From Candidatus Latescibacterota bacterium (lineage in GTDB: Bacteria; Latescibacterota; UBA2968): DNA of 64,000 bases. Each line of letters begins with the position of its first letter. Position 1 is the first letter of the stretch. The notes under the pieces are model-generated. The model was not told the origin of the DNA, ran no database searches, and was given only the letters and a program-made list of their open reading frames with translations. The stretch covers positions 7,264,001 through 7,328,000 of the forward strand of contig OZ240241.1 of NCBI GenBank assembly GCA_965198115.1. Direction: 5' to 3'. Below are positions 47,374 through 64,000 of the stretch, one piece after another. The position numbers were made by a program, and so were the translations under genes.

Positions 47374-48030
47374 TTAGGCGCCGCTAGCCTTGATATCAGT
47401 GGGTACCGGGAACTGATCCCAGGTTCTGCCGTCCAGCGTGCGCCCGGTCTTCTTTTTGTTCATTCCACCCCACTGCTTGAAGTGGAATGCGACGCCAGCG
47501 CGAACGCACTGGTCTCGGATCGACCGCACCCAGTCCGGGCTTACTGGCCGGGCTCCCGGACCACTCTCTCCACCGGCGATGACCCAATCGATCCCCCCGG
47601 TGTTCAAACGATCTAACTGCCCAAGCAGAGGTTCGAGACTTAGAAACTTGACCGTCGCGCCGGCGCGACGCAGATGATCAATTCGAAACTGATAATCTGC
47701 ATTTTCTACGCTGACACCCATCCAGACGTTTCTCGACCATTCAAGGGCGTCCGATAATTCTTCCAGTCTCTCAGCCCGCTTCGTTAGGATTTGGTACGTG
47801 TGCTGGGAAGTCTCGCTCATTGTAGTGAACACCCGCTGTATGAACTCCAGTGGCACCGTTTCATGAAACAGGTCGGACATCGAGTTAACGAAGATCATTC
47901 GCCCCGTCTTCCACATGTCCGGGAGCTTCAGGCTCTCCTCATCGATCCGAACGACACCGTTCCACTTTGGCCGGCCACCGGAGACACGGGTTGTGCCCGC
48001 GTACTTGGGCTGTCCCATTGCCTCAAGCCG
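47374..48030 (-). pseudogene. DUF5131 (phage Gp37/Gp68-like) protein lacking its N-terminal Cys motif
   Basis: FVNSMSDLFH, QILTKR, WMGVSVE, SLEPLL, WVIAGGESG, FKQWGG; homology stops at RLEAM next to vapC. Confidence 0.8.
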
Positions 48031-48051
48031 GCCGCCTTCACACCGCCCATC

Positions 48052-48465
48052 TCAATCCTTCCAGGGGTTCAAGAGGTCGGCACCCGTCGCGGCGAAGTCG
48101 GACTCGTTGCGGGTGACGATCGCGAACCGATGCCGAAGGGCGGTCGCGGCGATCAAGCCATCGATGGCGGGCATCGGTTTCTTCAGGCGGGCCATCAGCC
48201 GGCCCCATTCGTCCGCGACGCCTGTATCGATCGGCAGAACACGGTCTTCGAACCAGGCGGGCAACTCCGTTTCAAGCCACGCGGCTATCCTCGCGCGGCG
48301 GCGACTGCTCCCGAGCTTCTCAATTCCCTTGCGGATTTCGCCCAAGGTCAAGACGCTAACGAACAACGCCTCCGATGGCACCGCGTCGAACCATTCGGAT
48401 ACGCGGGGCGAAGGCCTCGGCTTGAGCAGTTCGGAAAGCGCGCAGGTATCGACCAGAAAGCTCAC
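48052..48465 (-). CDS. vapC: VapC PIN-domain toxin
   Basis: FLVDTCALSE, GEIRKG, DGLIAATA, TRNESDF. Confidence 0.9.
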   Translation of the reverse strand: MSFLVDTCALSELLKPRPSPRVSEWFDAVPSEALFVSVLTLGEIRKGIEKLGSSRRRARIAAWLETELPAWFEDRVLPIDTGVADEWGRLMARLKKPMPAIDGLIAATALRHRFAIVTRNESDFAATGADLLNPWKD

Positions 48466-48710
48466 AGTTCAACATCGCGCGGCAGCGACTGGTCGCGCTC
48501 GATGTTCAACTGGACCCCCGCCAGCGGTGAAGTCCGCAGAAACTCACCCAATGAGGGTTTCGACCGCTTGAGGCGGTCGTAATCATCCGCCGAAAGAACG
48601 ACGGCCGCTCGTCGTCCGCGGACGGTGATCGTCTGCGGACCGGTGGCGGCTGCACCGCGCACCAATTCACTGAAGCGCGCCTTGGCCTCCTGCAACTGCC
48701 AATTAGGCAT
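48462..48710 (-). CDS. Phd/YefM antitoxin
   Basis: WQLQEAKARFSELV..GPQTIT.RG; 4-bp overlap with vapC. Confidence 0.9.
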   Translation of the reverse strand: MPNWQLQEAKARFSELVRGAAATGPQTITVRGRRAAVVLSADDYDRLKRSKPSLGEFLRTSPLAGVQLNIERDQSLPRDVEL

Positions 48711-50478: not shown

Positions 50479-51049
50479 CTATTGCGTCCTGAACCTCTGC
50501 AGGATTATCTACAGACCTAACGCTGTGTCTGCATCGCATCGTTGCAAGTCCTTCGCCCACAACGACTTATCGCTCGCGGATTATATGCTGCGGCGGCCTG
50601 TTTCCGACGCGGATTGTATGTGGCGGCATACTTCTCCCGTCAGGCACCGGGCCGCCGCTGCGGCATACTTCTCCCGTCAGATCGCAGTGTTGACCGACAT
50701 CGCTTCGGGCTGGACGGAGTGCCTGCCACTGCTCGTGCGAGAGCAGGGCTTGATATACATGTAACGAAAGCTACCCATGTCTGGCCCACTGAGGCTCGTG
50801 GCGGAGCGACTGGACCCTCCTACGGGTCTCTCTGGACGTATCCTGACAACTTCGAGGAGACAAGCGATGTTCAGGAAGATTCTCACCGTGACGGCCCTGG
50901 CATTAATCCCTGGGGCATTAATCCTCGGGCTCGCCGGGCTCGCATTCTACAGGAAACGCAGGGAACCATAGGAAACACGAGGTTCGCTGGGAACCTTCGA
51001 CGAGACAGAGTTGAGCCGCAGGGCTCCGGGATGGGAAGAGTCGCCTGAG

Positions 51050-52392: not shown

Positions 52393-52864
52393 TCCGATCC
52401 GAAAAGCTATTAACCCGTTTTTTTGGGTGCGGTGTTAGTTAGCTGGCTCGGTCAATTCGCATCGCCTTGAAACGGCAGGGTCTCGATGAAACGGGCCATC
52501 CGCGCAGCTTCTTGCGCCGTTAAGTCTACTGGGAGTTCAACAGTAACGGACTGATCGGATCGTAGGCGAAATGTGTGCTTGAAGAGGCTATTACCTCCGT
52601 TTTCTTCTCCCTTTTCCTCCTGAGATACTTCTTCGACTTGTTCAGTTTCACCAGCTGCTGCCTGCCCAACTCCAACCATCTGAACATCCCATTCAAAGCG
52701 TGACGTCCACCCTTTTCTCCCAACCGTGAAACTTCCGCAACCGCAATCTTCCAACTTCCGAAACACCCTGATGACGTCTCCCCGATAAACATTTTGACCC
52801 TCGTTCAAGAGATTCCAGTGAATTCGGTGAGGTCCCTATCCTAGTTGAAACTTAAAGGGCTCCA

Positions 52865-53398
52865 GTAGCCATAACGTCCATATTCGCTGGCCAGAGAGAC
52901 GATGTTCGCGGTCAGGACGGTCTCGCCGTCCGCCACCTTGAGCGTGTATCGCTGGGTACGGCGCACCTGACCCAGCACACGGCACGCCCGACGCTCCGAG
53001 ACAGCCAGGGCCTCACGCACGTGCCCGACCGCCTTCCTTCGCCGCGTCGGGCTCAGAAGTTTCCCCGGGACACCTCCTTGAGAATCGAGATATCCAGGGC
53101 CTGGTCGGCCACAAGACGTTTCAGACGCCCGTTCTCTTGCTCCAGCTCCTTCAGCCGGCGGACCTGGTCGACCTCCATACCGCCGTATTCCTTGCGCCAC
53201 CGGTAGTAGGTCTGTTCGCTGACGCCAAGCTCACGCGAGACCTCGCCGACCGTCTTGCCTTCCGAATATACGAATCTCTGCCTGACGGAGATGTCCGATG
53301 ATCTGCTCCGCTGTGTATCGCTTCCTGGCCATTCGGCCCCCTTTCTATGTTCCGATATCCTAACTTTAGGAATGGGAACAATCCAGGGGGGCAGGTCA
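52865..53398 (-). mobile_element. IS3 family left-half remnant (same element as 49393)
   Basis: IRL TGACCTGCCCC at 53398, frameshifted orfA, orfB truncated against an IS256 end at 52826-52864. Confidence 0.88.
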
Positions 53399-53490
53399 TG
53401 AGGATGTGGGCAAAACGAGCAGCGTGCGCTACAGTGGTTTGTCAGCTCAATTTCGACCGTGTGCGGCTCCGGACTAGGTGGGTAATCCAT
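53399..53490 (-). pseudogene. Radical SAM protein N-terminus, cut by IS3
   Basis: MDYPPSPEPHTVEIELTNHCSARCSFCPH (CxxxCxxC); SD-like AGGGG; starts 11 bp after the serS stop. Confidence 0.8.
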
Positions 53491-53501
53491 TAACGTCCCC
53501 T

Positions 53502-54740
53502 TTACCTTTTAATCTTCGTCATCCCATTGAGGTGGGACACGAGCGGTGGCGGAACGACGATCGAACCATCCGGTTCTTGGTAGTTCTCGATAATGACTGC
53601 GATCAAGCGGTCACAGAACCCAGTTGCAGATATAGTGTGAGGAAAGCCTCGTTCTTGTCCCACTTTGTAACGTATATTTCCACGACGAGTCTGGTAATCA
53701 CCCAGATTCGTATCTGAAGTCATCTCCCTGTAACGTGCCTGGTTGGGGAGCCACGCTTCAGTATCGTATTTAATCATGCCGGCAGCTGACAGATCCCCAG
53801 ACGAGGTGAGGACAACCCGGAATGGGATTTCAAGCTCCTGCATCAACCATTCAGCATTCTCTAGGCAACGCTGGTGCCATTCCTCCGATTCCGACGGATG
53901 ACAATACACAATCTGCTCCAGCTTATAGAACTGATGCACCCTGATGATGCCAGCGGTATCTCGTCCGTAGCTTCCTGCTTCGGTACGAAAACACATGGAG
54001 TCACCTAGGTATAATTTCGGTAACGACGTGAGCATTTCGTCCATATGGAGACCGAGAAGAATCTGTTCGCTCGTGCCAATTAGCGATAGGTCTTCTCCAG
54101 AAATGCGGAAGTTTTCTTTCTCCGAAAATGGCAGATAACCCGAACAGAACAGAGTCTGATCTTTAGCCAAGTACGGCGGAGAAATCAGTTCGAAACCTTG
54201 GATGTTGGCGCGTTCGTAGAACATCCGCATGAGCCCCATTCTCATGAGGACGGCTTCGTTCTTAAGGCAGTAAAACCGGGATTTAGCTGCATTGACGGCC
54301 CTGGGTATATCCAAAAGATCTAACGCGGCCCCGATTTCTCCATGTGGCCGGGGGGAAAAACTAAAGGATGGTGGCGAGCCAACGGTCCTAACGACGGTGT
54401 TCGCCTCTTCCCCACCAACTGGGACGCGGGGATCGAGAAGATTAGGGACCCAACTTAGCCGTTCCTTCAACTCGCGTTCCACTTTGTCGAGATCCCGAGA
54501 CAGATGTGATTCTTCTTTCTTCAATCGTTTGACTTCCTCCCGCCGCTCGATGTTTTCTCCGGAGCTCCACGACTTCGAGACTTCCTTGATTTGTTGACGT
54601 AGTGAATCCGCTTTCGAAATTAGCAACCGCCGTTCTCGGTCAAGCATCGCGATTGCATCGACATCAATGTCAGCACCCCGGGCTACACAATTAGCGCGGA
54701 TTTTCTCAAGTTCATGCCGAATTAGCTTAATATCTATCAT
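53502..54740 (-). CDS. serS: Seryl-tRNA synthetase, divergent island-borne copy
   Basis: MIDIKLIR N-terminal coiled-coil arm, [48 protein letters not shown]. Confidence 0.9.
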
Positions 54741-54795
54741 TGTTGTAGCGAATATTGGGTACTATGTGAGACAGGACTGGACGACAAGAGTCATT

Positions 54796-56169
54796 GAGCT
54801 CAGGTCAATAGGTGTGTAAAAGAAATCAGGCGGCCATCTTCCCGGCTTCGACCTGCGGTTCGGTTGAGTGTTTCTGATCGTAGACTTGTTGTAGCAAGTG
54901 TGGCGCGGTGAGTTTCCTGAATCGGCTCTCTGCGACCTTGAGCGTACGCCAGATGAGAGCCGTGGCGTTCCTGACTTTCTTGAATCGCCTGGCGGCGTTT
55001 GTGCGAAGCCGAACGGAAGCAAAGGGGCTCTCGACGACGTTCGTGGTTCTCAGGTGTTTCCAGTGTTCCTTCGGGAAGTCGTAGAACGTGACCATCCGAT
55101 CCCAGTCTCTTTCGAGCGTCTCCACGGCGGCAGGGAACTGTGAGCGATACCGTGCGGCAAAGCGTTTCCGGAGCTTCTCGGCCTCCTTTTTCGTGCCGGC
55201 ATAGGGGATCTGGACGAGCAGTGCGCGGGCTTCAGCCTGTGCACGCTTGGCGACCTTGTCGAGCACGTTGAGGATCTTGTGGTTCCAGCACCGTTGTTGC
55301 CGGCTCTCTGGCCAGACCTGATCAACGGCCGCCCAGATGCCCATATTCCCGTCCGCGGCGATCAGGACAGGATGTTCGAGCCCGCGATCCCGGAGATCCC
55401 GGAGCACCGTGAGCCAGGATTCTGTAGACTCTCGATAACCGGGTTCTATCGCCAGGATCTCCTTGCTGCCGTCGCTCATCGCGCCGATCACGACCAGCAG
55501 ACACGCCTTCTCGCGCTCGAGCCCGGCTTTGACGTAGATGCCATCAGCCCAGGCGTAGACCAGTTCGCGATTATCCAGACGCCTTTCTTTCCAGTCCTGG
55601 AAGTCGACCTCCCACTTCCCTCGAAGACGAGCGATCGAGGTCGGCGAAAGCGGCGCGCCATCACCGAGCAGCGCACGCAAAGACAACTCGAAGTCGCCCT
55701 GGGAGAGACCGTGGAGATAAAGGTCGGGAAGCAGATCTCCAATGGCCCTGGTTCTCCGGGCGAACAGGGGGAGGATGCGGCTTTCAAACCGCTCTTCCAG
55801 ACCACGAACCCGGGGACGCCGGACCTTGATCGTTCCGCAGCTCGTCGAGAGACGCCGGGGCTTGCCGTAGCCGTTCCTGTAGCCCGTGGAGCTATCGACC
55901 TCGGCTCGGCGCTCATACCACGACCGGCCCAAGAACGCGGTCGCCTCCTCCTCCAGAATGGACTGGAACCGGCCCTGGATCTCTTCACGGATCCAATCGT
56001 CAACCGTCTCCCACGTCGGCATGGACTTCAATGGGGCTCTATGCGTATGTTCCTTCACGGCGATCCTCCTTCCCAACCGGGCCTCTCACCCGGTTTTGTG
56101 TGAATCAACTATCTCACGGGAAGGGTAGGGTCGCCCTTTCTCTTTTTCCACACCTTTTGATTATAGCTC
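54796..56169 (-). mobile_element. IS256 family (group C) copy 1, intact
   Basis: 1374 bp, TSD GAGTCATT, transposase 54826-56058. Confidence 0.95.
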
Positions 56170-56425
56170 GAGTCATTCCACAATTCATGCTTCCCCCAAT
56201 TGAGTCCGAGTGCCTTCCAACACAATGCCGTCTGTGAAACGACAGATCGTAGCATTGCCGTCATTTACTCTCTCGGGTCCCTTTTCTATCTTTCGTTGCA
56301 GATGTGTTGTGTCGAGGGGAGGGATCTGAAACTACCCAAGCTGTGATTTAAGAATCCATATACGGATCCTGCCATGGCGGTGAGGTATTTTGAGGGACGA
56401 GATTTCCCCACCAAATTGTGCCCCA

Positions 56426-58196
56426 TCAAGATTTGATTTCGATTGCTAAACATCGTTCGCTTCGTTTTAGAACTATGAGATTGGTTGACATCCAGAAGGG
56501 AATCCATACGCCTTCGTGTTCCACTGTAGGGTTGCGCAAAAGTGCTGGTACATCTATCTCCTTCCGTCCTTCGATTACTACTCTACCTAATTCCTCACAC
56601 ATCCCCGAATCCACAACGTAGTAGTGCCGAGCTATAATCAAAAGGTGTGGAAAAAGAGAAAGGGCGACCCTACCCTTCCCGTGAGATAGTTGATTCACAC
56701 AAAACCGGGTGAGAGGCCCGGTTGGGAAGGAGGATCGCCGTGAAGGAACATACGCATAGAGCCCCATTGAAGTCCATGCCGACGTGGGAGACGGTTGACG
56801 ATTGGATCCGTGAAGAGATCCAGGGCCGGTTCCAGTCCATTCTGGAGGAGGAGGCGACCGCGTTCTTGGGCCGGTCGTGGTATGAGCGCCGAGCCGAGGT
56901 CGATAGCTCCACGGGCTACAGGAACGGCTACGGCAAGCCCCGGCGTCTCTCGACGAGCTGCGGAACGATCAAGGTCCGGCGTCCCCGGGTTCGTGGTCTG
57001 GAAGAGCGGTTTGAAAGCCGCATCCTCCCCCTGTTCGCCCGGAGAACCAGGGCCATTGGAGATCTGCTTCCCGACCTTTATCTCCACGGTCTCTCCCAGG
57101 GCGACTTCGAGTTGTCTTTGCGTGCGCTGCTCGGTGATGGCGCGCCGCTTTCGCCGACCTCGATCGCTCGTCTTCGAGGGAAGTGGGAGGTCGACTTCCA
57201 GGACTGGAAAGAAAGGCGTCTGGATAATCGCGAACTGGTCTACGCCTGGGCTGATGGCATCTACGTCAAAGCCGGGCTCGAGCGCGAGAAGGCGTGTCTG
57301 CTGGTCGTGATCGGCGCGATGAGCGACGGCAGCAAGGAGATCCTGGCGATAGAACCCGGTTATCGAGAGTCTACAGAATCCTGGCTCACGGTGCTCCGGG
57401 ATCTCCGGGATCGCGGGCTCGAACATCCTGTCCTGATCGCCGCGGACGGGAATATGGGCATCTGGGCGGCCGTTGATCAGGTCTGGCCAGAGAGCCGGCA
57501 ACAACGGTGCTGGAACCACAAGATCCTCAACGTGCTCGACAAGGTCGCCAAGCGTGCACAGGCTGAAGCCCGCGCACTGCTCGTCCAGATCCCCTATGCC
57601 GGCACGAAAAAGGAGGCCGAGAAGCTCCGGAAACGCTTTGCCGCACGGTATCGCTCACAGTTCCCTGCCGCCGTGGAGACGCTCGAAAGAGACTGGGATC
57701 GGATGGTCACGTTCTACGACTTCCCGAAGGAACACTGGAAACACCTGAGAACCACGAACGTCGTCGAGAGCCCCTTTGCTTCCGTTCGGCTTCGCACAAA
57801 CGCCGCCAGGCGATTCAAGAAAGTCAGGAACGCCACGACTCTCATCTGGCGTACGCTCAAGGTCGCAGAGAGCCGATTCAGGAAACTCACCGCGCCACAC
57901 TTGCTACAACAAGTCTACGATCAGAAACACTCAACCGGACCGCAGGTCGAAGCCGGGAAGATGGCCGCCTGATTTCTTTTACACACCTATTGACCTGAAC
58001 TCGGTAGTGCCTTCGAAACTTCTTCAATCCAATACTCCTGTTTCTGTTCGTTGACGTGCCAATGCCCACCTTGTCCGGGGGGGGCAGCCGTCATAATAAC
58101 ACGACTTGGCCTGAATCTGACAATATTGCGGATGAATTCATCAGAGTACTCTTCCTCGATGTGTTCAGCAACCTCTATGGAAAGAACAGTATCGGC
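56426..58196 (-). pseudogene. Class I SAM methyltransferase remnant split by an IS256
   Basis: 58196-58003 reads DTVLSIEVAEHI..TAAPPGQGGHWHVNEQ..YWI; continues after the IS as HYYVVD..WIPFWMSTNLIVLKR*. Confidence 0.7.
56629..58002 (+). mobile_element. IS256 family (group C) copy 2, intact
   Basis: 1374 bp, flanking GTAGTGCC duplicated, transposase 56740-57972. Confidence 0.95.
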
Positions 58197-58486
58197 GGTG
58201 TTGTGCCTATCGTAGTTGAAACTTAGAGGGCTCCAAACTTACGTTGGGTAGACGTGTAGGAGCGTATACCCGTAAGAAAGGAGCCCAGATGGAGAAGCTA
58301 TTTGTAAGCGATGGTGAAGTCAAGGTTGAGGGCGATGTCATCGATTTGGAGACGCGTTTGTCGGTGATCCAGGCGTTGATCCCGTTGGGTCTGGAGGCAG
58401 TGGCAGACCTCCTCCAGCAGGAGGTCGAGCAGCTCGCAGGCGTTCGGTATGCGCGCAAAGGTTCGGAGCAGGCGCATCGTCGGTGG

Positions 58487-58770
58487 GGGGTGTGTCCAGA
58501 GATTTGTGTAACTGGTGACACGATTACTTTAACGGGACACGATCTTCGAACATGATGGCGAACCGGTTGATGGCCCCATTCCAATCATTCAGTGGCCGGG
58601 TCCATCGTTTGGAGATGTTTCGGATCGCCAGATACAGGAGTTTGATGGCGGCCTGATCATTCGGGAACGCGCCTCTGTTCTTCGTGACTTTCCGGAGCGA
58701 TGCGTTCATTGACTCGATGGCGTTCGTCGTGTAGATCACCTTCCGGATCTCTGGTGGGTAGGCGAAGAAC
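58487..58770 (-). mobile_element. Classic IS256 3' remnant nested in the group B element
   Basis: IYTTNAIES.N..RK..K.RGAFPND..KLLYL; end TTACACAAATCTCTGGACACACCC. Confidence 0.8.
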
Positions 58771-59865
58771 GGGGTTCCAGGAGCGTCCCCTCGACGACTA
58801 CGGCTTCGTGACCCTCTTCATTGACGGAAAGAGCTTTGCCGACGAAGAGATCGTGATCGCTCTGGGGGTCACGATGGACGGCCAGAAGATCCCCCTGGGC
58901 TTCGTCGAATCGGCGACGGAGAACGAACGGATCTGCCGCCAGCTGATCCAGGACCTCATCCGGAGAGGCCTGTGCTACGATCAAGGCCTCCTCGTTGTGC
59001 TTGACGGCTCAAAGGGGCTCCGCAGTGCCGTCACCAAAGCCCTCAAAGGGTATGTGCGCGTGCATCGCTGTCAGTGGCACAAGCGCGAGAATGTCGTCAG
59101 CTATCTCCCGGAGAGGGAACGTCCAAGAGTTCGACGGAAGCTCCAGAAAGCCTATGACTGCGACACCTACGAGGAGGCAAAGGCCGCACTCGAATCACTT
59201 AAACCCGAACTGAAGCTGATGAATCAGTCTGCCGTAACGAGCCTCGAGGAAGGCCTGGAGGAAACCCTGACCCTCCACCGGCTGGGTATGCTCCCGTTCC
59301 TGAAACGAAGCTTCCGAACCACCAACTGCATCGAAGCCCTCAACAGCAGGACCGGCGAGCTCACTCGGAAGGTCAGACGCTGGAACAACTCTCCCCAGAG
59401 ACACAGATGGGTGGCTGCCGCACTCCTCGACATCGAACCTCGCCTGCGACGCGTGAGCGGATACAAACATCTTCCCCTACTCAGGCAAGCACTGAACAAA
59501 GATCTGAATCTCGACAACGAACAGAATGCTCAAAAGAGAGCCTGACCAAACTACGGGGCCCGATGAGTTTCAACTGACTATGGGACTTGACCCCGGGGGC
59601 CTATAACCCTGTCTTAGTCTTAAAACCAGTTTCACAGCCCCAGACTGTGATATAACTCTCTCACTGGCACTGGTACAAAATATCGGTCTGGTCAATGACT
59701 GAAGAGGTTGGTAGAAGAAGGCATTCAGGTTACCAGCCGCCGTCGGCCAAAGTTGCAACACAACCCACCCCTCCCTCTGAAAGACTGCCACCGACGGGCC
59801 GGCTTCTTGATCCTACCGCCCCGGTGGCCAACCACGATCCGTCGACCCGGCTCTACATGTCGGCT

Positions 59866-60744
59866 TCAGAACACGTAGCGCAAAGATACCCGAAGTCCAT
59901 GATTCGATAGATTCGCTCGGGTTTTGGCAAGGTCAAACTCCAGCGGGTCGCGACTTCCGTCGCGCCAGACAACCCGGCCTTTGGCCTGGCCGGTCTCCAC
60001 GGTACCGGAATCCGTGTAACGCCAGGCAAGATTCAGCGTTACCCTCTCCCCCAGCGATTTTGCAACTCCCGCAGCCAGCATCCAGGCAAAATTAACCTGT
60101 TCTCCGCCGGGAACGACGGTGGTCGTCTTCGGGAACTCCATGAGAGTTTCATCAATATTGACGCGGGACAGGCCACCACCACCCCCGATAAACGGCCTGA
60201 GGGGCCCGAGTCGAGGCAGGCCGACTTCGGTCAGATCCCAGTACGCAGCCAGCAAGCCGTGCAGTGAGGACAAATCCGCTGAAACATCCTGCCTGTCGGT
60301 GGTTTGTACAAAATTGGAGAGACCCTTGAAGGAAAACCTCGGGTGGTACTCAATAACAGCTTCCAGCCGAAGGGCAGGCGTCATGGCATAGCCGAACCCG
60401 AGATCGAAACCGGTCATTGTTCCGAAATCGCCACGTGCACTCAACGGGGTGCCGTCAAGGCCCTCCCCGCAGCCATAAAGAGCCGCCGGAGAGGTAATCG
60501 AGCAGTTCTTGTCCTGGAACCGCGTTTCTTCCGACCAGTCGAACACAACTCCAGTCACGAAATAGAATCTTGCCGAAGCGGCGGCCGTGTCGGAGACAGG
60601 CGGTGTGGGAGTCCGGCCGGGTGGCGTGGATGCGTCTTCACCTCTGGTATCGGTGGTTTGTGCGCATGTAATAACCGGAATGACCGCCACCATAATAGCC
60701 GCAACAAAGGCTGTCCGAGTCCATGATTCAAGAAAACCGATCAT
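59866..60744 (-). CDS. Outer-membrane beta-barrel protein (opacity/porin-like)
   Basis: Signal peptide, GFGY..LRLE, PFIGGGGG, FAW.L.AG, YTDSG, terminal LRYVF. Confidence 0.8.
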   Translation of the reverse strand: MIGFLESWTRTAFVAAIMVAVIPVITCAQTTDTRGEDASTPPGRTPTPPVSDTAAASARFYFVTGVVFDWSEETRFQDKNCSITSPAALYGCGEGLDGTPLSARGDFGTMTGFDLGFGYAMTPALRLEAVIEYHPRFSFKGLSNFVQTTDRQDVSADLSSLHGLLAAYWDLTEVGLPRLGPLRPFIGGGGGLSRVNIDETLMEFPKTTTVVPGGEQVNFAWMLAAGVAKSLGERVTLNLAWRYTDSGTVETGQAKGRVVWRDGSRDPLEFDLAKTRANLSNHGLRVSLRYVF

Positions 60745-60948
60745 CGGTTTATCTGTGAATCTCCAGGCTTTCCGCCACCCACCGATTTGTTGTCCTGATC
60801 CGCCATGTTAGAGGGTGCCCTGTTCTTGCTTCTCGGTGATGCGGCGCTGGATCAAGACGTTGATCTCCTCGGCCATTTTGGTCTTGCGCATGACGCAGCA
60901 TGGTTATCCGCAGGAACATCTTTGTGGTCTTCCAACTCGATTGCCTAG

Positions 60949-61325
60949 CCTGAATCATGCATGAATTTGAGTTTAGGTTGTTTTGGAGTGATGTGATCAC
61001 GCACAGGATTTGTTCTCGGCTTCTTCGGATGTCCAAGGTCCCGTAAGCGGTCTCTACGAGTCGCAAGAGTCACGATTTTCGTCCGGAACAGGTGTTGTTT
61101 TGCGACGTGTACATAGCTGTCCCCGGTATAGATCGGCGTTGTTACTGCGTGTTCGTTTCGAGCCTGGTGATGATTGACACCAAGACGTTTTTGAGTGGAT
61201 ACGATGTTGGAAAATGGAATCGGATTCTTCGTGCGCTTTCAATGACTCTCGCGCCGATTTTGAGGAAACGGTTCTGTATCGTGTTGACCTGAGGTTTGGT
61301 CCACGCGGTGCCCTTGAGCTTTGCC
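60949..61325 (-). mobile_element. IS1380 family 3' remnant
   Basis: TIQNRFLKIGARVIESARRI.FHFP.SYP; end ATGCATGATTCAGG. Confidence 0.7.
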
Positions 61326-62403
61326 GACGAAGAGATCGTGATCGCTCCGGGCGTCACGACGGACGGCCAGAAGATCCCCCTGGGCTTCGTCGAATCGGCG
61401 ACGGAGAACGAACGGATCTGCCGTCAGCTGATCCAGGATCTCATCCGGAGAGGCCTGTGCTACGACCAGGGCCTTCTCGTTGTGCTGGACGGCTCAAAGG
61501 GACTCCGCAGTGCCGTCACCAAAGCCCTCAAAGGGGATGTGTGCGTGCATCGCTGTCAGTGGCACAAGCGCGAGAACGTCGTCAGCTACCTCCCGGAGGC
61601 AGAACGTCCAAGAGTTCGACGGAAACTTCAGAAAGCCTATGACTGCGACACCTACGAGGAGGCAAAGGCCGCACTCGAATCACTCAAACCCGAACTCAAG
61701 CTGATGAATCAGTCTGCCGTGGCAAGCCTCGAGGAAGGACTGGAGGAAACCCTGACCCTCCACCGGCTGGGGATGCTCCCGTTCTTGAAGCGAAGCTTCC
61801 GAACCACCAATTGCATCGAGGCGCTCAACAGCATGACCGGCAACCTGATACGGAAGGTCAACCGCTGGAACAACTCTCCTCAGCGACACAGATGGGTCGC
61901 GGCCGCACTCCTCGACATCGAACCACGCCTGCGACGCGTGAGCGGATACAAACACCTCCCGCTGCTCAGGCAAGCACTGAAAAACAACCTGAATCTCGGC
62001 GACAATCAAGATGCTCGGCAGAGAGCATGAATACCACGGAGCCCGATGAGTTTCAACTGACTATGGGACTTGACCGTATCGGCCTTCTATCCCGACAGCT
62101 GAGGACTAACCGAATAATAGGGAAATCCTTTGCAGTGGCAAGGGGAGAAAACTCACTACCGCGTAGACCATGCTTCCCCATAGTTTTGCAGAAGAGTCGT
62201 CCCGCAATGATGCTTCAAAGCGCGTCTCCACGCTCTAACGAACAACCTATCCATCTCGCCCATAAATTGCCGGACAAACCCACCCGCAGGAAGGAAACGA
62301 AGGCAACCTTCTTCGATATGAGCCCAAGATTGATCGCGACCTGCCTCACGGTCACCTTCCAATCTTAGGTCCATCACCTGAACGACATTCCATAAGTAGA
62401 TTC

Positions 62404-63777
62404 GAGCTATAATCAAAAGGTGTGGAAAAAGAGAAAGGGCGACCCTACCCTTCCCGTGAGATAGTTGATTCACACAAAACCGGGTGAGAGGCCCGGTTGG
62501 GAAGGAGGATCGCCGTGAAGGAACATACGCATAGAGCCCCATTGAAGTCCATGCCGACGTGGGAGACGGTTGACGATTGGATCCGTGAAGAGATCCAGGG
62601 CCGGTTCCAGTCCATTCTGGAGGAGGAGGCGACCGCGTTCTTGGGCCGGTCGTGGTATGAGCGCCGAGCCGAGGTTGATAGCTCCAGGGGCTACAGGAAC
62701 GGCTACGGCAAGCCCCGGCGTCTCTCGACGAGCTGCGGAACGATCAAGGTCCGGCGTCCCCGGGTTCGTGGTCTGGAAGAGCGGTTTGAAAGCCGCATCC
62801 TCCCCCTGTTCGCCCGGAGAACCAGGGCCATTGGAGATCTGCTTCCCGACCTTTATCTCCACGGTCTCTCCCAGGGCGACTTCGAGTTGTCTTTGCGTGC
62901 GCTGCTCGGTGATGGCGCGCCGCTTTCGCCGACCTCGATCGCTCGTCTTCGAGGGAAGTGGGAGGTCGACTTCCAGGACTGGAAAGAAAGGCGTCTGGAT
63001 AATCGCGAACTGGTCTACGCCTGGGCTGATGGCATCTACGTCAAAGCCGGGCTCGAGCGCGAGAAGGCGTGTCTGCTGGTCGTGATCGGCGCGATGAGCG
63101 ACGGCAGCAAGGAGATCCTGGCGATAGAACCCGGTTATCGAGAGTCTACAGAATCCTGGCTCACGGTGCTCCGGGATCTCCGGGATCGCGGGCTCGAACA
63201 TCCTGTCCTGATCGCCGCGGACGGGAATATGGGCATCTGGGCGGCCGTTGATCAGGTCTGGCCAGAGAGCCGGCAACAACGGTGCTGGAACCACAAGATC
63301 CTCAACGTGCTCGACAAGGTCGCCAAGCGTGCACAGGCTGAAGCCCGCGCACTGCTCGTCCAGATCCCCTATGCCGGCACGAAAAAGGAGGCCGAGAAGC
63401 TCCGGAAACGCTTTGCCGCACGGTATCGCTCACAGTTCCCTGCCGCCGTGGAGACGCTCGAAAGAGACTGGGATCGGATGGTCACGTTCTACGACTTCCC
63501 GAAGGAACACTGGAAACACCTGAGAACCACGAACGTCGTCGAGAGCCCCTTTGCTTCCGTTCGGCTTCGCACAAACGCCGCCAGGCGATTCAAGAAAGTC
63601 AGGAACGCCACGACTCTCATCTGGCGTACGCTCAAGGTCGCAGAGAGCCGATTCAGGAAACTCACCGCGCCACACTTGCTACAACAAGTCTACGATCAGA
63701 AACACTCAACCGGACCGCAGGTCGAAGCCGGGAAGATGGCCGCCTGATTTCTTTTACACACCTATTGACCTGAACTC
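62404..63777 (+). mobile_element. IS256 family (group C) copy 3, intact
   Basis: 1374 bp, TSD GTAGATTC, transposase 62515-63747. Confidence 0.95.
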
Positions 63778-64000
63778 GTAGATTCTGCGATATCCGATTC
63801 TTCCGCTGAAAACGTGTCACCACATAGACTCATCACTCAATTCTTAAATCGTACCTTTGGAATGTCTCCTTAAGAAATTCATCATTCTTCCCCTTTCGGA
63901 TATTGACCCACTTAAGCGCCCTCCGTCCTGTACCGAAAACAGGGGGGAAGTCATCGTGCTTCGGTTCGAGCTTAAGGCAACGTGTGCCCTTAAGTCATGA

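What the first reader, a model, noticed from the sequence alone, without database searches (positions are those of the whole stretch)
53399..64000. Hidden operon rebuilt from TSDs: methyltransferase -> small ORFs -> divergent SerRS -> radical SAM
Seen: four insertions each carry matching flanks (GAGTCATT 54788/56170; GTAGTGCC 56621/58004; GTATCGGC 58189/62076; GTAGATTC 62396/63778). The lower-GC pieces between them were therefore once contiguous. On the minus strand they read SAM methyltransferase (SIEVAEH, APPGQGGHWHVNEQ), short ORFs, a full-length SerRS, and then a CxxxCxxC radical SAM starting 11 bp later. Established: extra SerRS copies in biosynthetic clusters serve as self-resistance (AbmK, albomycin) or as seryl-tRNA donors (VlmL, valanimycin). 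Inference: this is the remnant of an undescribed tRNA-dependent or SerRS-inhibitor pathway, or of a serine-decorating glycan/modification system.
Basis: partly seen in the sequence, partly recalled or inferred. Interest (0 to 1): 0.8.

Follow-up and report, generated by a model that had tools for sequence, protein, structure and literature searches.

The report
Shattered remnant of seryl-transfer gene cluster
Jumping genes have broken up a foreign DNA island, leaving an intact second serine-tRNA enzyme beside the stub of its usual partner enzyme; relatives suggest it is the leftover of an undescribed pathway that likely attaches serine to a sugar-nucleoside compound, and that pathway is incomplete in this genome.

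Summary
All four 8-bp duplications, the intact 412-aa SerRS and the CxxxCxxC start 11 bp downstream are real. The SerRS is a second, foreign copy: 35% identical to the host's own, absent from 167 other genomes of the phylum, and in a separate clade. The SerRS-to-radical-SAM link is conserved: the 33-aa stub belongs to a narrow radical SAM/SPASM family that lies on the same contig as this SerRS clade in other lineages. The methyltransferase link is not: it is a frameshifted glycan-type pseudogene, the 'small ORFs' are probably its tail, and 0 of 47 comparison loci carry it. Six of 16 close SerRS loci sit in a module with a truncated AlaRS-like enzyme, mostly with an archaeal-type SAM synthetase and a glycosyltransferase; 20 of 20 further Streptomyces loci have that core with another SerRS. 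It likely works like albomycin AbmK/AbmF or ascamycin AcmD/AcmF. The AlaRS-like and SAM synthetase genes and the rest of the radical SAM were not found in this genome, so the pathway is dead here. The same SerRS clade is the only serS found in five other genomes, so its odd motifs do not prove resistance. The scan noted this module before on other DNA (e1-2041672).

The parts
53502..54740 (-). Intact second seryl-tRNA synthetase (412 aa), clade with GTSEQ / DSMCFRTE / EMTS[ND]TN / HTISATG motifs
   Evidence: TIGR00414 358.5 bits, cut-off 301.65; PF00587 + PF02403; 35% to host serS; tree; GC3 0.54 vs 0.75 for host serS
53399..53490 (-). N-terminal stub of a radical SAM/SPASM gene with CxxxCxxC, 11 bp after the serS stop, cut by an IS3-type element
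   Evidence: 70% over 33 aa to the radical SAM of the G043 cluster, E 6e-10 genome-wide; fits family alignment A3
52837..53398 (-). Partial IS3-type element that truncates the radical SAM gene
   Evidence: PF01527; 99% copies elsewhere in the genome
54788..54795 (.). Target duplication GAGTCATT (partner 56170-56177)
54796..56169 (-). IS256-family element, copy 1, 55 bp upstream of the serS start
   Evidence: PF00872
56178..56425 (.). Spacer; with 54741-54795 it gives about 300 bp between the inferred methyltransferase stop and the serS start; no gene recognised
56426..56628 (-).
   Evidence: motif resemblance to homolog tails
56629..58003 (+). IS256-family element, copy 2; duplication GTAGTGCC at 56621 and 58004
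58012..58196 (-). Recognisable core of a class I SAM methyltransferase pseudogene (SIEVAEH ... GQGGHWHVNEQ)
   Evidence: 40-50% to plasmid methyltransferases next to glycosyltransferases; GC3 0.48
58197..62075 (.). Composite insertion bounded by IS256-type ends; holds transposase pieces and an outer-membrane beta-barrel gene; duplication GTATCGGC at 58189 and 62076
62084..62403 (-). Low-GC piece where the methyltransferase N-terminal half should lie; degenerate, not recognised
   Evidence: identical in Logan contig of run X1
62404..63777 (+). IS256-family element, copy 3; duplication GTAGATTC at 62396 and 63778
63786..64000 (-). End of a GT2-like glycosyltransferase frame that starts beyond the window (to 64799) and stops at 63990; probable frameshifted tail to 63833
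   Evidence: PF00535 weak, E 0.0012, below cut-off

Best explanation
This is an IS-shattered, horizontally acquired island that keeps an intact second SerRS and the stub of its partner radical SAM enzyme, and it is likely the remnant of an undescribed biosynthetic module that would transfer serine onto a sugar- or nucleoside-type acceptor. Shown: the insertions, the intact foreign SerRS, the truncated radical SAM, the decayed methyltransferase, and a recurrent module in relatives (archaeal-type SAM synthetase, truncated AlaRS-like protein, GT4 glycosyltransferase, SerRS; plus radical SAMs, DegT aminotransferase, UDP-GlcNAc 2-epimerase, or a kinase and phosphatase). Inferred for the intact module: the glycosyltransferase and tailoring enzymes build an amino-sugar or adenosine-bearing acceptor; the SAM synthetase supplies SAM or the adenosyl part; SerRS makes Ser-tRNA or Ser-AMP; the AlaRS-like protein, which has no editing domain, moves the seryl group onto the acceptor amine, as AcmF and AbmF do; the product would mimic seryl-adenylate and the cluster SerRS would double as immunity. 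Inferred for this genome: the pathway cannot run, and the SerRS survives as a spare, possibly inhibitor-tolerant, charging enzyme. The methyltransferase and GT2-like gene are probably co-travelling glycan-type cargo, not pathway members.
For: Second serS exists and only this genome has two among 41 relatives; 0 of 167 other genomes of the phylum reach E 1e-105. 53-row clade, SH-aLRT 100, apart from the host enzyme (quick tree). Radical SAM stub 70% to a gene of the G043 cluster that also holds this SerRS clade, the SAM synthetase and the AlaRS-like gene. Same pair elsewhere: P0178 reads this SerRS straight into this radical SAM, in the window's order; HHW11938.1 and HHW11937.1 are consecutive accessions on a 33,150-bp contig; three more pairs share contig length and source (P0080/P0135, P0088/P0136, P0082/P0280; indirect). 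AlaRS-like gene at 6 of 16 loci with SerRS at 56% identity or more; SAM synthetase and GT4 at 5 of them. 23 of 401 Streptomyces genomes carry the AlaRS-like gene; 20 of the 21 distant hits were fetched and all 20 have the SAM synthetase and a canonical-type SerRS; GT4-like, kinase and phosphatase genes were read in the 7 loci listed (kinase called in 2) and Pfam-checked in one. AlaRS-like fold: E 4e-16 to 2ztg, Foldseek TM 0.73 to 3wqy. Precedents: PMC12945691, PMC8323819, PMC9032320.
Against: Only one locus with DNA in hand (G043) ties this radical SAM family to the full module, and there it lies about 10 kb from the SerRS on the other strand; for the adjacent pairs no further neighbours could be read. 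10 of 16 close loci and all 11 more distant loci lack the AlaRS-like gene (some contigs are short). The clade is the only full serS found in G530, G588, G654, G042 and G045, and its motif-3 variant is shared with Patescibacteria proteins. Cluster-linked members need 5 changes on the tree. No product, activity or resistance was tested. No promoter-like site was found on the serS strand.
Confidence: 0.55

Rival explanations
1. An ordinary foreign housekeeping-type SerRS arrived as cargo on a mobile element together with its donor's neighbours, and has no biosynthetic or resistance meaning here.
For: The clade is the sole full serS found in five genomes; 21 of 27 loci lack the AlaRS-like gene; catalytic motifs align with solved SerRS; a helicase-plus-repeat unit upstream has an 87% copy elsewhere in the genome with different neighbours.
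Against: The same narrow radical SAM family lies with this SerRS clade in several lineages, which chance carriage does not explain; Streptomyces and G043 carry the clade as an extra copy inside the module.
Confidence: 0.2
2. The GT2-like gene, methyltransferase, SerRS and radical SAM were one operon that decorated a surface glycan with serine and methyl groups.
For: All four lie on one strand in one low-GC stretch; GC3 of SerRS, methyltransferase and GT2 is 0.48-0.54; methyltransferase homologs sit beside glycosyltransferases; the module in relatives is rich in sugar enzymes.
Against: No methyltransferase or GT2 homolog at 27 clade loci or 20 further module loci; about 300 bp separate it from serS; both genes are broken while serS is intact; no export or polymerase genes were seen among the module neighbours scanned.
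Confidence: 0.12
3. SerRS and the radical SAM form their own two-gene unit in which the radical SAM modifies the seryl group on tRNA or adenylate (as sulfatase-maturing radical SAM/SPASM enzymes oxidise serine; recalled), and the module merely recruits it at times.
For: Tight coupling here (11 bp) and in P0178; the family has a SPASM domain; it is missing from most module loci.
Against: No substrate evidence; G043 has it apart from serS, beside an epimerase and another radical SAM, which fits sugar tailoring; whether most of the 53 family members lie near serS is unknown.
Confidence: 0.1

Closest known systems
Ascamycin AcmD/AcmF (Streptomyces sp. 80H647; PMC12945691, passages and section 5 read)
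   Same: A truncated AlaRS-like protein with only the aminoacylation and tRNA-recognition parts is paired with a full synthetase; AcmF can also transfer serine. The relatives' protein keeps Arg, Phe and Glu at positions that appear to match AcmF Arg93, Phe104, Glu216 (matched by motif, AcmF sequence not in hand).
   Different: The partner is a SerRS, not an AlaRS; the positions matching AcmF Gln219 and Glu232 are Glu and Asp; best sequence matches are archaeal AlaRS; the module has a SAM synthetase and GT4, and no sulfamate genes were seen. The window lacks the AlaRS-like gene.
Albomycin AbmK/AbmF/AbmJ/AbmI (PMC9032320 passages; PMC8323819 passages and section 9)
   Same: An extra, divergent SerRS beside radical SAM genes that supplies seryl-adenylate to a synthetase-like ligase and gives immunity.
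   Different: No PLP transaldolase, carbamoyltransferase or siderophore NRPS among the neighbours scanned; the window methyltransferase resembles glycan-cluster enzymes.
Valanimycin VlmL/VlmA (passages in PMC9032320 and PMC12945691)
   Same: A cluster-encoded SerRS serving as seryl-tRNA donor.
   Different: No VlmA-type GNAT-fold transferase at the window or module loci scanned; the candidate transferase has an AlaRS fold.
Canonical bacterial SerRS (TIGR00414) and IS256-family elements (PF00872)
   Same: The SerRS passes the family cut-off; the insertions are ordinary IS256 copies with 8-bp duplications.
   Different: The SerRS has HTISATG for the usual HTLNG/NS/T motif and belongs to a sporadic cross-phylum clade next to Patescibacteria-type enzymes.

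Membership tests
Seryl-tRNA synthetase (TIGR00414) | Score above the curated cut-off; N-terminal arm plus class II core | tested here: met
   358.5 vs 301.65 bits; PF02403 + PF00587
Seryl-tRNA synthetase (TIGR00414) | Serine- and ATP-binding motifs kept (T-x-E, F-R-x-E, HQF-x-K-x-E, motif-3 Thr and Arg; their roles are recalled) | tested here: met
   alignment to 2dq3 and 2dq0; motif-3 Asn is Ser across the clade
Seryl-tRNA synthetase (TIGR00414) | Charges tRNA-Ser | not testable with these tools
   indirect only: clade members are the sole full serS found in five genomes
Albomycin-type cluster (AbmK) | Second SerRS distinct from the housekeeping copy | tested here: met
Albomycin-type cluster (AbmK) | Thionucleoside and siderophore genes (AbmH, AbmD, AbmE, AbmQ) in the cluster | tested here: not met
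   none among the window ORFs or the neighbour ORFs scanned with Pfam; only part of all neighbour ORFs was scanned
Albomycin-type cluster (AbmK) | Orthology to AbmK and resistance to SB-217452 | not testable with these tools
   AbmK sequence not obtained; Zeng 2009 not held
Ascamycin-type AcmD/AcmF pair | Truncated AlaRS-like protein without editing domain near a full synthetase | tested here: met
   met in relatives; absent from the window's genome
Ascamycin-type AcmD/AcmF pair | AcmF signature Gln219 and Glu232; donor is an AlaRS | tested here: not met
   Glu146 and Asp165 invariant in alignment A2, matched by motif; partner is SerRS
Valanimycin VlmL/VlmA | GNAT-fold seryl transferase partner in the cluster | tested here: not met
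   none in the window or module loci scanned; one GNAT lies near a module-free homolog, L105
IS256 family | Mutator-type transposase with 8-9-bp target duplication (length recalled) | tested here: met

The most novel reading that the evidence does not exclude
The locus is the relic of a widespread, undescribed class of seryl-adenylate-mimic antibiotics, built by an archaeal-type SAM synthetase, a glycosyltransferase and an editing-less AlaRS-fold seryl transferase and encoded in about 6% of sampled Streptomyces and in other phyla; the HTISATG SerRS clade is its mobile resistance gene, kept intact here after the pathway died and adopted as the only SerRS by Haliangium-like and other soil bacteria.
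Probability: 0.3. Interest if true: 0.8.

Novelty: new variant of a known kind. Interest (0 to 1): 0.5.

Why it matters
SerRS is a proven antibiotic target with albomycin as the only class named in the reviews read. A compact module that repeatedly pairs a SerRS with an AlaRS-fold protein, a SAM synthetase and a glycosyltransferase gives a directly testable route to new seryl-linked compounds, with cultured Streptomyces hosts, and a candidate new tRNA-dependent transferase. The window itself is a dead remnant and is useful mainly as a pointer, and as a case of a foreign SerRS outlasting its neighbours.

Tried and rejected
Rebuilding a whole methyltransferase by removing the insertions: only the C-terminal half is recognisable. 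Remainder of the radical SAM, SAM synthetase or AlaRS-like gene elsewhere in the genome: not found by tblastn or HMM. Sequencing error as cause of the breaks: Logan contigs of run X1 agree letter for letter over 53369-54822, 56143-56655, 62049-62430 and 63750-64859; X1 may be the source sample, and 58012-58196 was not among the pieces shown. Insertion-free alleles: no such joint among those shown (2 and 13 joints not shown). No RNA holder listed. Genome scan for relatives was swamped by canonical SerRS: 7 of 80 loci were at 45% or more. Plasmids: best SerRS match 38%, no clade member. Viral contigs: only distant radical SAMs, 21-34%. Sphingomonas-genus search for the P0081 locus: 0 of 156. G043 phylum: 2 of 401 for the AlaRS-like profile, one being G043. 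No tRNA gene at the locus. Promoter scan: 1 site against 1.6 expected. The profile search of cluster representatives never ran, so family sizes rest. Print: no paper held all terms; one search listed 20 of 60 with only ascamycin relevant; subscription papers and supplements were not seen. Zeng 2009 and Ushimaru 2020 were not held.
Full report
Observation. The window is G000:C1:7264001-7328000 in a single-contig 8.43-Mb genome of 59% GC. All four 8-bp duplications are at the stated coordinates and abut insertion ends. Three insertions are copies of one IS256-family element with 130 near-full copies in the genome, 97 of them with a flanking repeat of at least 7 bp by a crude count. The third insertion is a 3.9-kb composite. 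The intervening pieces were therefore once contiguous. The insertions themselves are an ordinary IS burst.

What the pieces read. The SerRS (53502-54740, minus) is intact and passes TIGR00414. The radical SAM starts after an 11-bp gap and is cut after about 30 codons by an IS3-type end. Its remainder was not found in the genome. The methyltransferase core matches class I enzymes that lie next to glycosyltransferases on plasmids (13 records; three regions read). Only profile positions 97-178 of 195 are recognisable. Beyond the window lie a broken GT2-like gene and a split helicase. Logan contigs of run X1, possibly the source sample, agree letter for letter over four of the five unique pieces shown, so most breaks look real. 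SerRS, methyltransferase and GT2 share low GC3 (0.48-0.54) against 0.75 for the host serS, which fits arrival together but not shared function. The helicase and an adjacent repeat have an 87% copy at G000:4.02 Mb with other neighbours, a hint of a mobile carrier.

The SerRS. The genome has a second serS, 35% identical; each of 40 relatives has one match, at 31-37%; 0 of 167 other genomes of the phylum reach E 1e-105. The best 120 database hits, 46-64% identical, come from scattered lineages such as Haliangium, Streptomyces, Anoxybacter, Elusimicrobia and Patescibacteria and share GTSEQ and, where the pattern matched, HTISAT. In a quick 78-row tree with SH-aLRT support only, the window protein lies in a 53-row clade (100) beside Patescibacteria-type rows, and the host copy groups with the same-genus copy (99). 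AbmK and VlmL were not in the tree. Against over-reading the divergence: this clade is the only full serS found in G530, G588, G654, G042 and G045, though these genomes may be incomplete. It is an extra copy in G041, G411 and G043.

Neighbourhoods. I compared 27 loci or locus groups (L102, a duplicate of L100, left out). Of 16 with SerRS at 56% identity or more, 6 have a truncated AlaRS-like gene and 5 of these an archaeal-type SAM synthetase (PF01941) and a GT4, with radical SAMs, DegT aminotransferase, UDP-GlcNAc 2-epimerase, SurE or GMC pieces. The other 10, some on short contigs, and 11 more distant loci lack the module. None of 27 has the window's methyltransferase or GT2. The window's radical SAM stub is 70% identical over 33 aa to a gene of the G043 cluster and fits a 53-protein family. 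That family lies with this SerRS clade elsewhere: P0178 is one 723-aa record reading SerRS then radical SAM, probably an assembly read-through, with separate calls on a 52,642-bp contig; HHW11938.1 and HHW11937.1 are consecutive; three more pairs share contig length and source, which is indirect.

The module. The AlaRS-like protein is about 320 aa and matches the catalytic and helical parts of archaeal AlaRS (E 4e-16; model pLDDT 78, TM 0.73 to 3wqy). It keeps the motif-2 Arg and Phe but not the Arg-His of the archaeal loop (the role of these residues in ATP binding is recalled). It occurs in 23 of 401 Streptomyces genomes. I fetched 20 of the 21 distant hits; all 20 have the SAM synthetase (69-72% to the L012 enzyme) and a canonical-type SerRS only 33-36% identical to ours, and none hit the radical SAM or methyltransferase queries. 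In the loci read, a GT4-like gene, a histidine phosphatase and a kinase complete the run. So the module has recruited a SerRS from two lineages, which argues that it needs serine activation or SerRS immunity. The SAM synthetase keeps the archaeal motifs (E 3.5e-68 to 4hpv), yet the second type shows no obvious SAM-using enzyme; this is unexplained. The Atlas lists unnamed clusters of 56-109 members for the AlaRS-like protein.

How it likely works. By analogy with AcmF (PMC12945691, passages and section 5) and AbmK/AbmF (PMC9032320 passages; PMC8323819 passages and section 9), SerRS supplies activated serine and the AlaRS-fold protein moves it onto an amino-sugar or adenosine-bearing acceptor, giving a seryl-adenylate mimic against which the cluster SerRS protects. 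All of this is inferred. In this genome the core genes were not found, so the pathway is dead and the SerRS is at most a spare or tolerant enzyme. The weak point is that only G043 ties this radical SAM family to the full module on DNA I could read.

Known or new. It works like the ascamycin and albomycin systems but fails their membership tests where these could be run. Four full-text searches found no paper with all terms, and passages of PMC9437257 list no such SerRS paralog; subscription papers and supplements were not seen. It is not independent support.

Verdict. Observation largely right; methyltransferase and small-ORF parts wrong; the SerRS-radical SAM link real. New variant of a known kind. 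Interest 0.5: the locus is a remnant, the module it points to is testable.

Noticed in passing
L153-L172 (20 Streptomyces genomes): Compact run of SAM synthetase, kinase, histidine phosphatase, canonical-type SerRS, GT4-like and AlaRS-like genes, often behind an HTH regulator; no SAM-using enzyme evident.
   Followed up: partly
L118-L120 (G530, G654, G588): The HTISATG-clade SerRS is the only full serS found in three Haliangium-like genomes, in a conserved module-free setting: apparent replacement of the housekeeping gene.
   Followed up: partly
L015-L017, L097, L100, L106, L108: In Jatrophihabitans-like actinobacteria a 44-46% subclade of this SerRS lies directly after a tellurite-resistance-like (StiP, C-C lyase) operon.
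   Followed up: no
just beyond the window, about 64750-67100 (L112:3750-6100); related repeat at window 50514-50681: Split DEAD-type helicase with a repeat-rich stretch and direct repeats; 87% helicase copy at G000:4022528-4024091 beside a DNA-adenine-methylase-like gene; repeat pieces at several other places. Possible family of integrated elements.
   Followed up: partly
whole genome G000: Extreme IS load: 130 near-full copies of one IS256 element and well over 100 matches to the end of an ISL3-like element.
   Followed up: partly
window 59866-60744 (-): Outer-membrane beta-barrel gene (PF13505, weak) carried inside the composite insertion.
   Followed up: no
L014:6214-8040 and L121:6655-8580: Two 610-640-aa proteins without Pfam match in the G043 cluster; also a SurE domain fused to an unnamed domain that stands alone in Streptomyces (L012:4256-5335).
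   Followed up: no
L105:9521-10766: A frameshifted copy of the clade SerRS near an ABC transporter and a 482-aa radical SAM.
   Followed up: no
L003 (G026): One genome of the host's order has a SerRS of another type (TLNNT motif) in place of the usual one.
   Followed up: no
window 47374-48710 (-): DUF5131 gene followed by a PIN-toxin/antitoxin-like pair (by sequence appearance).
   Followed up: no
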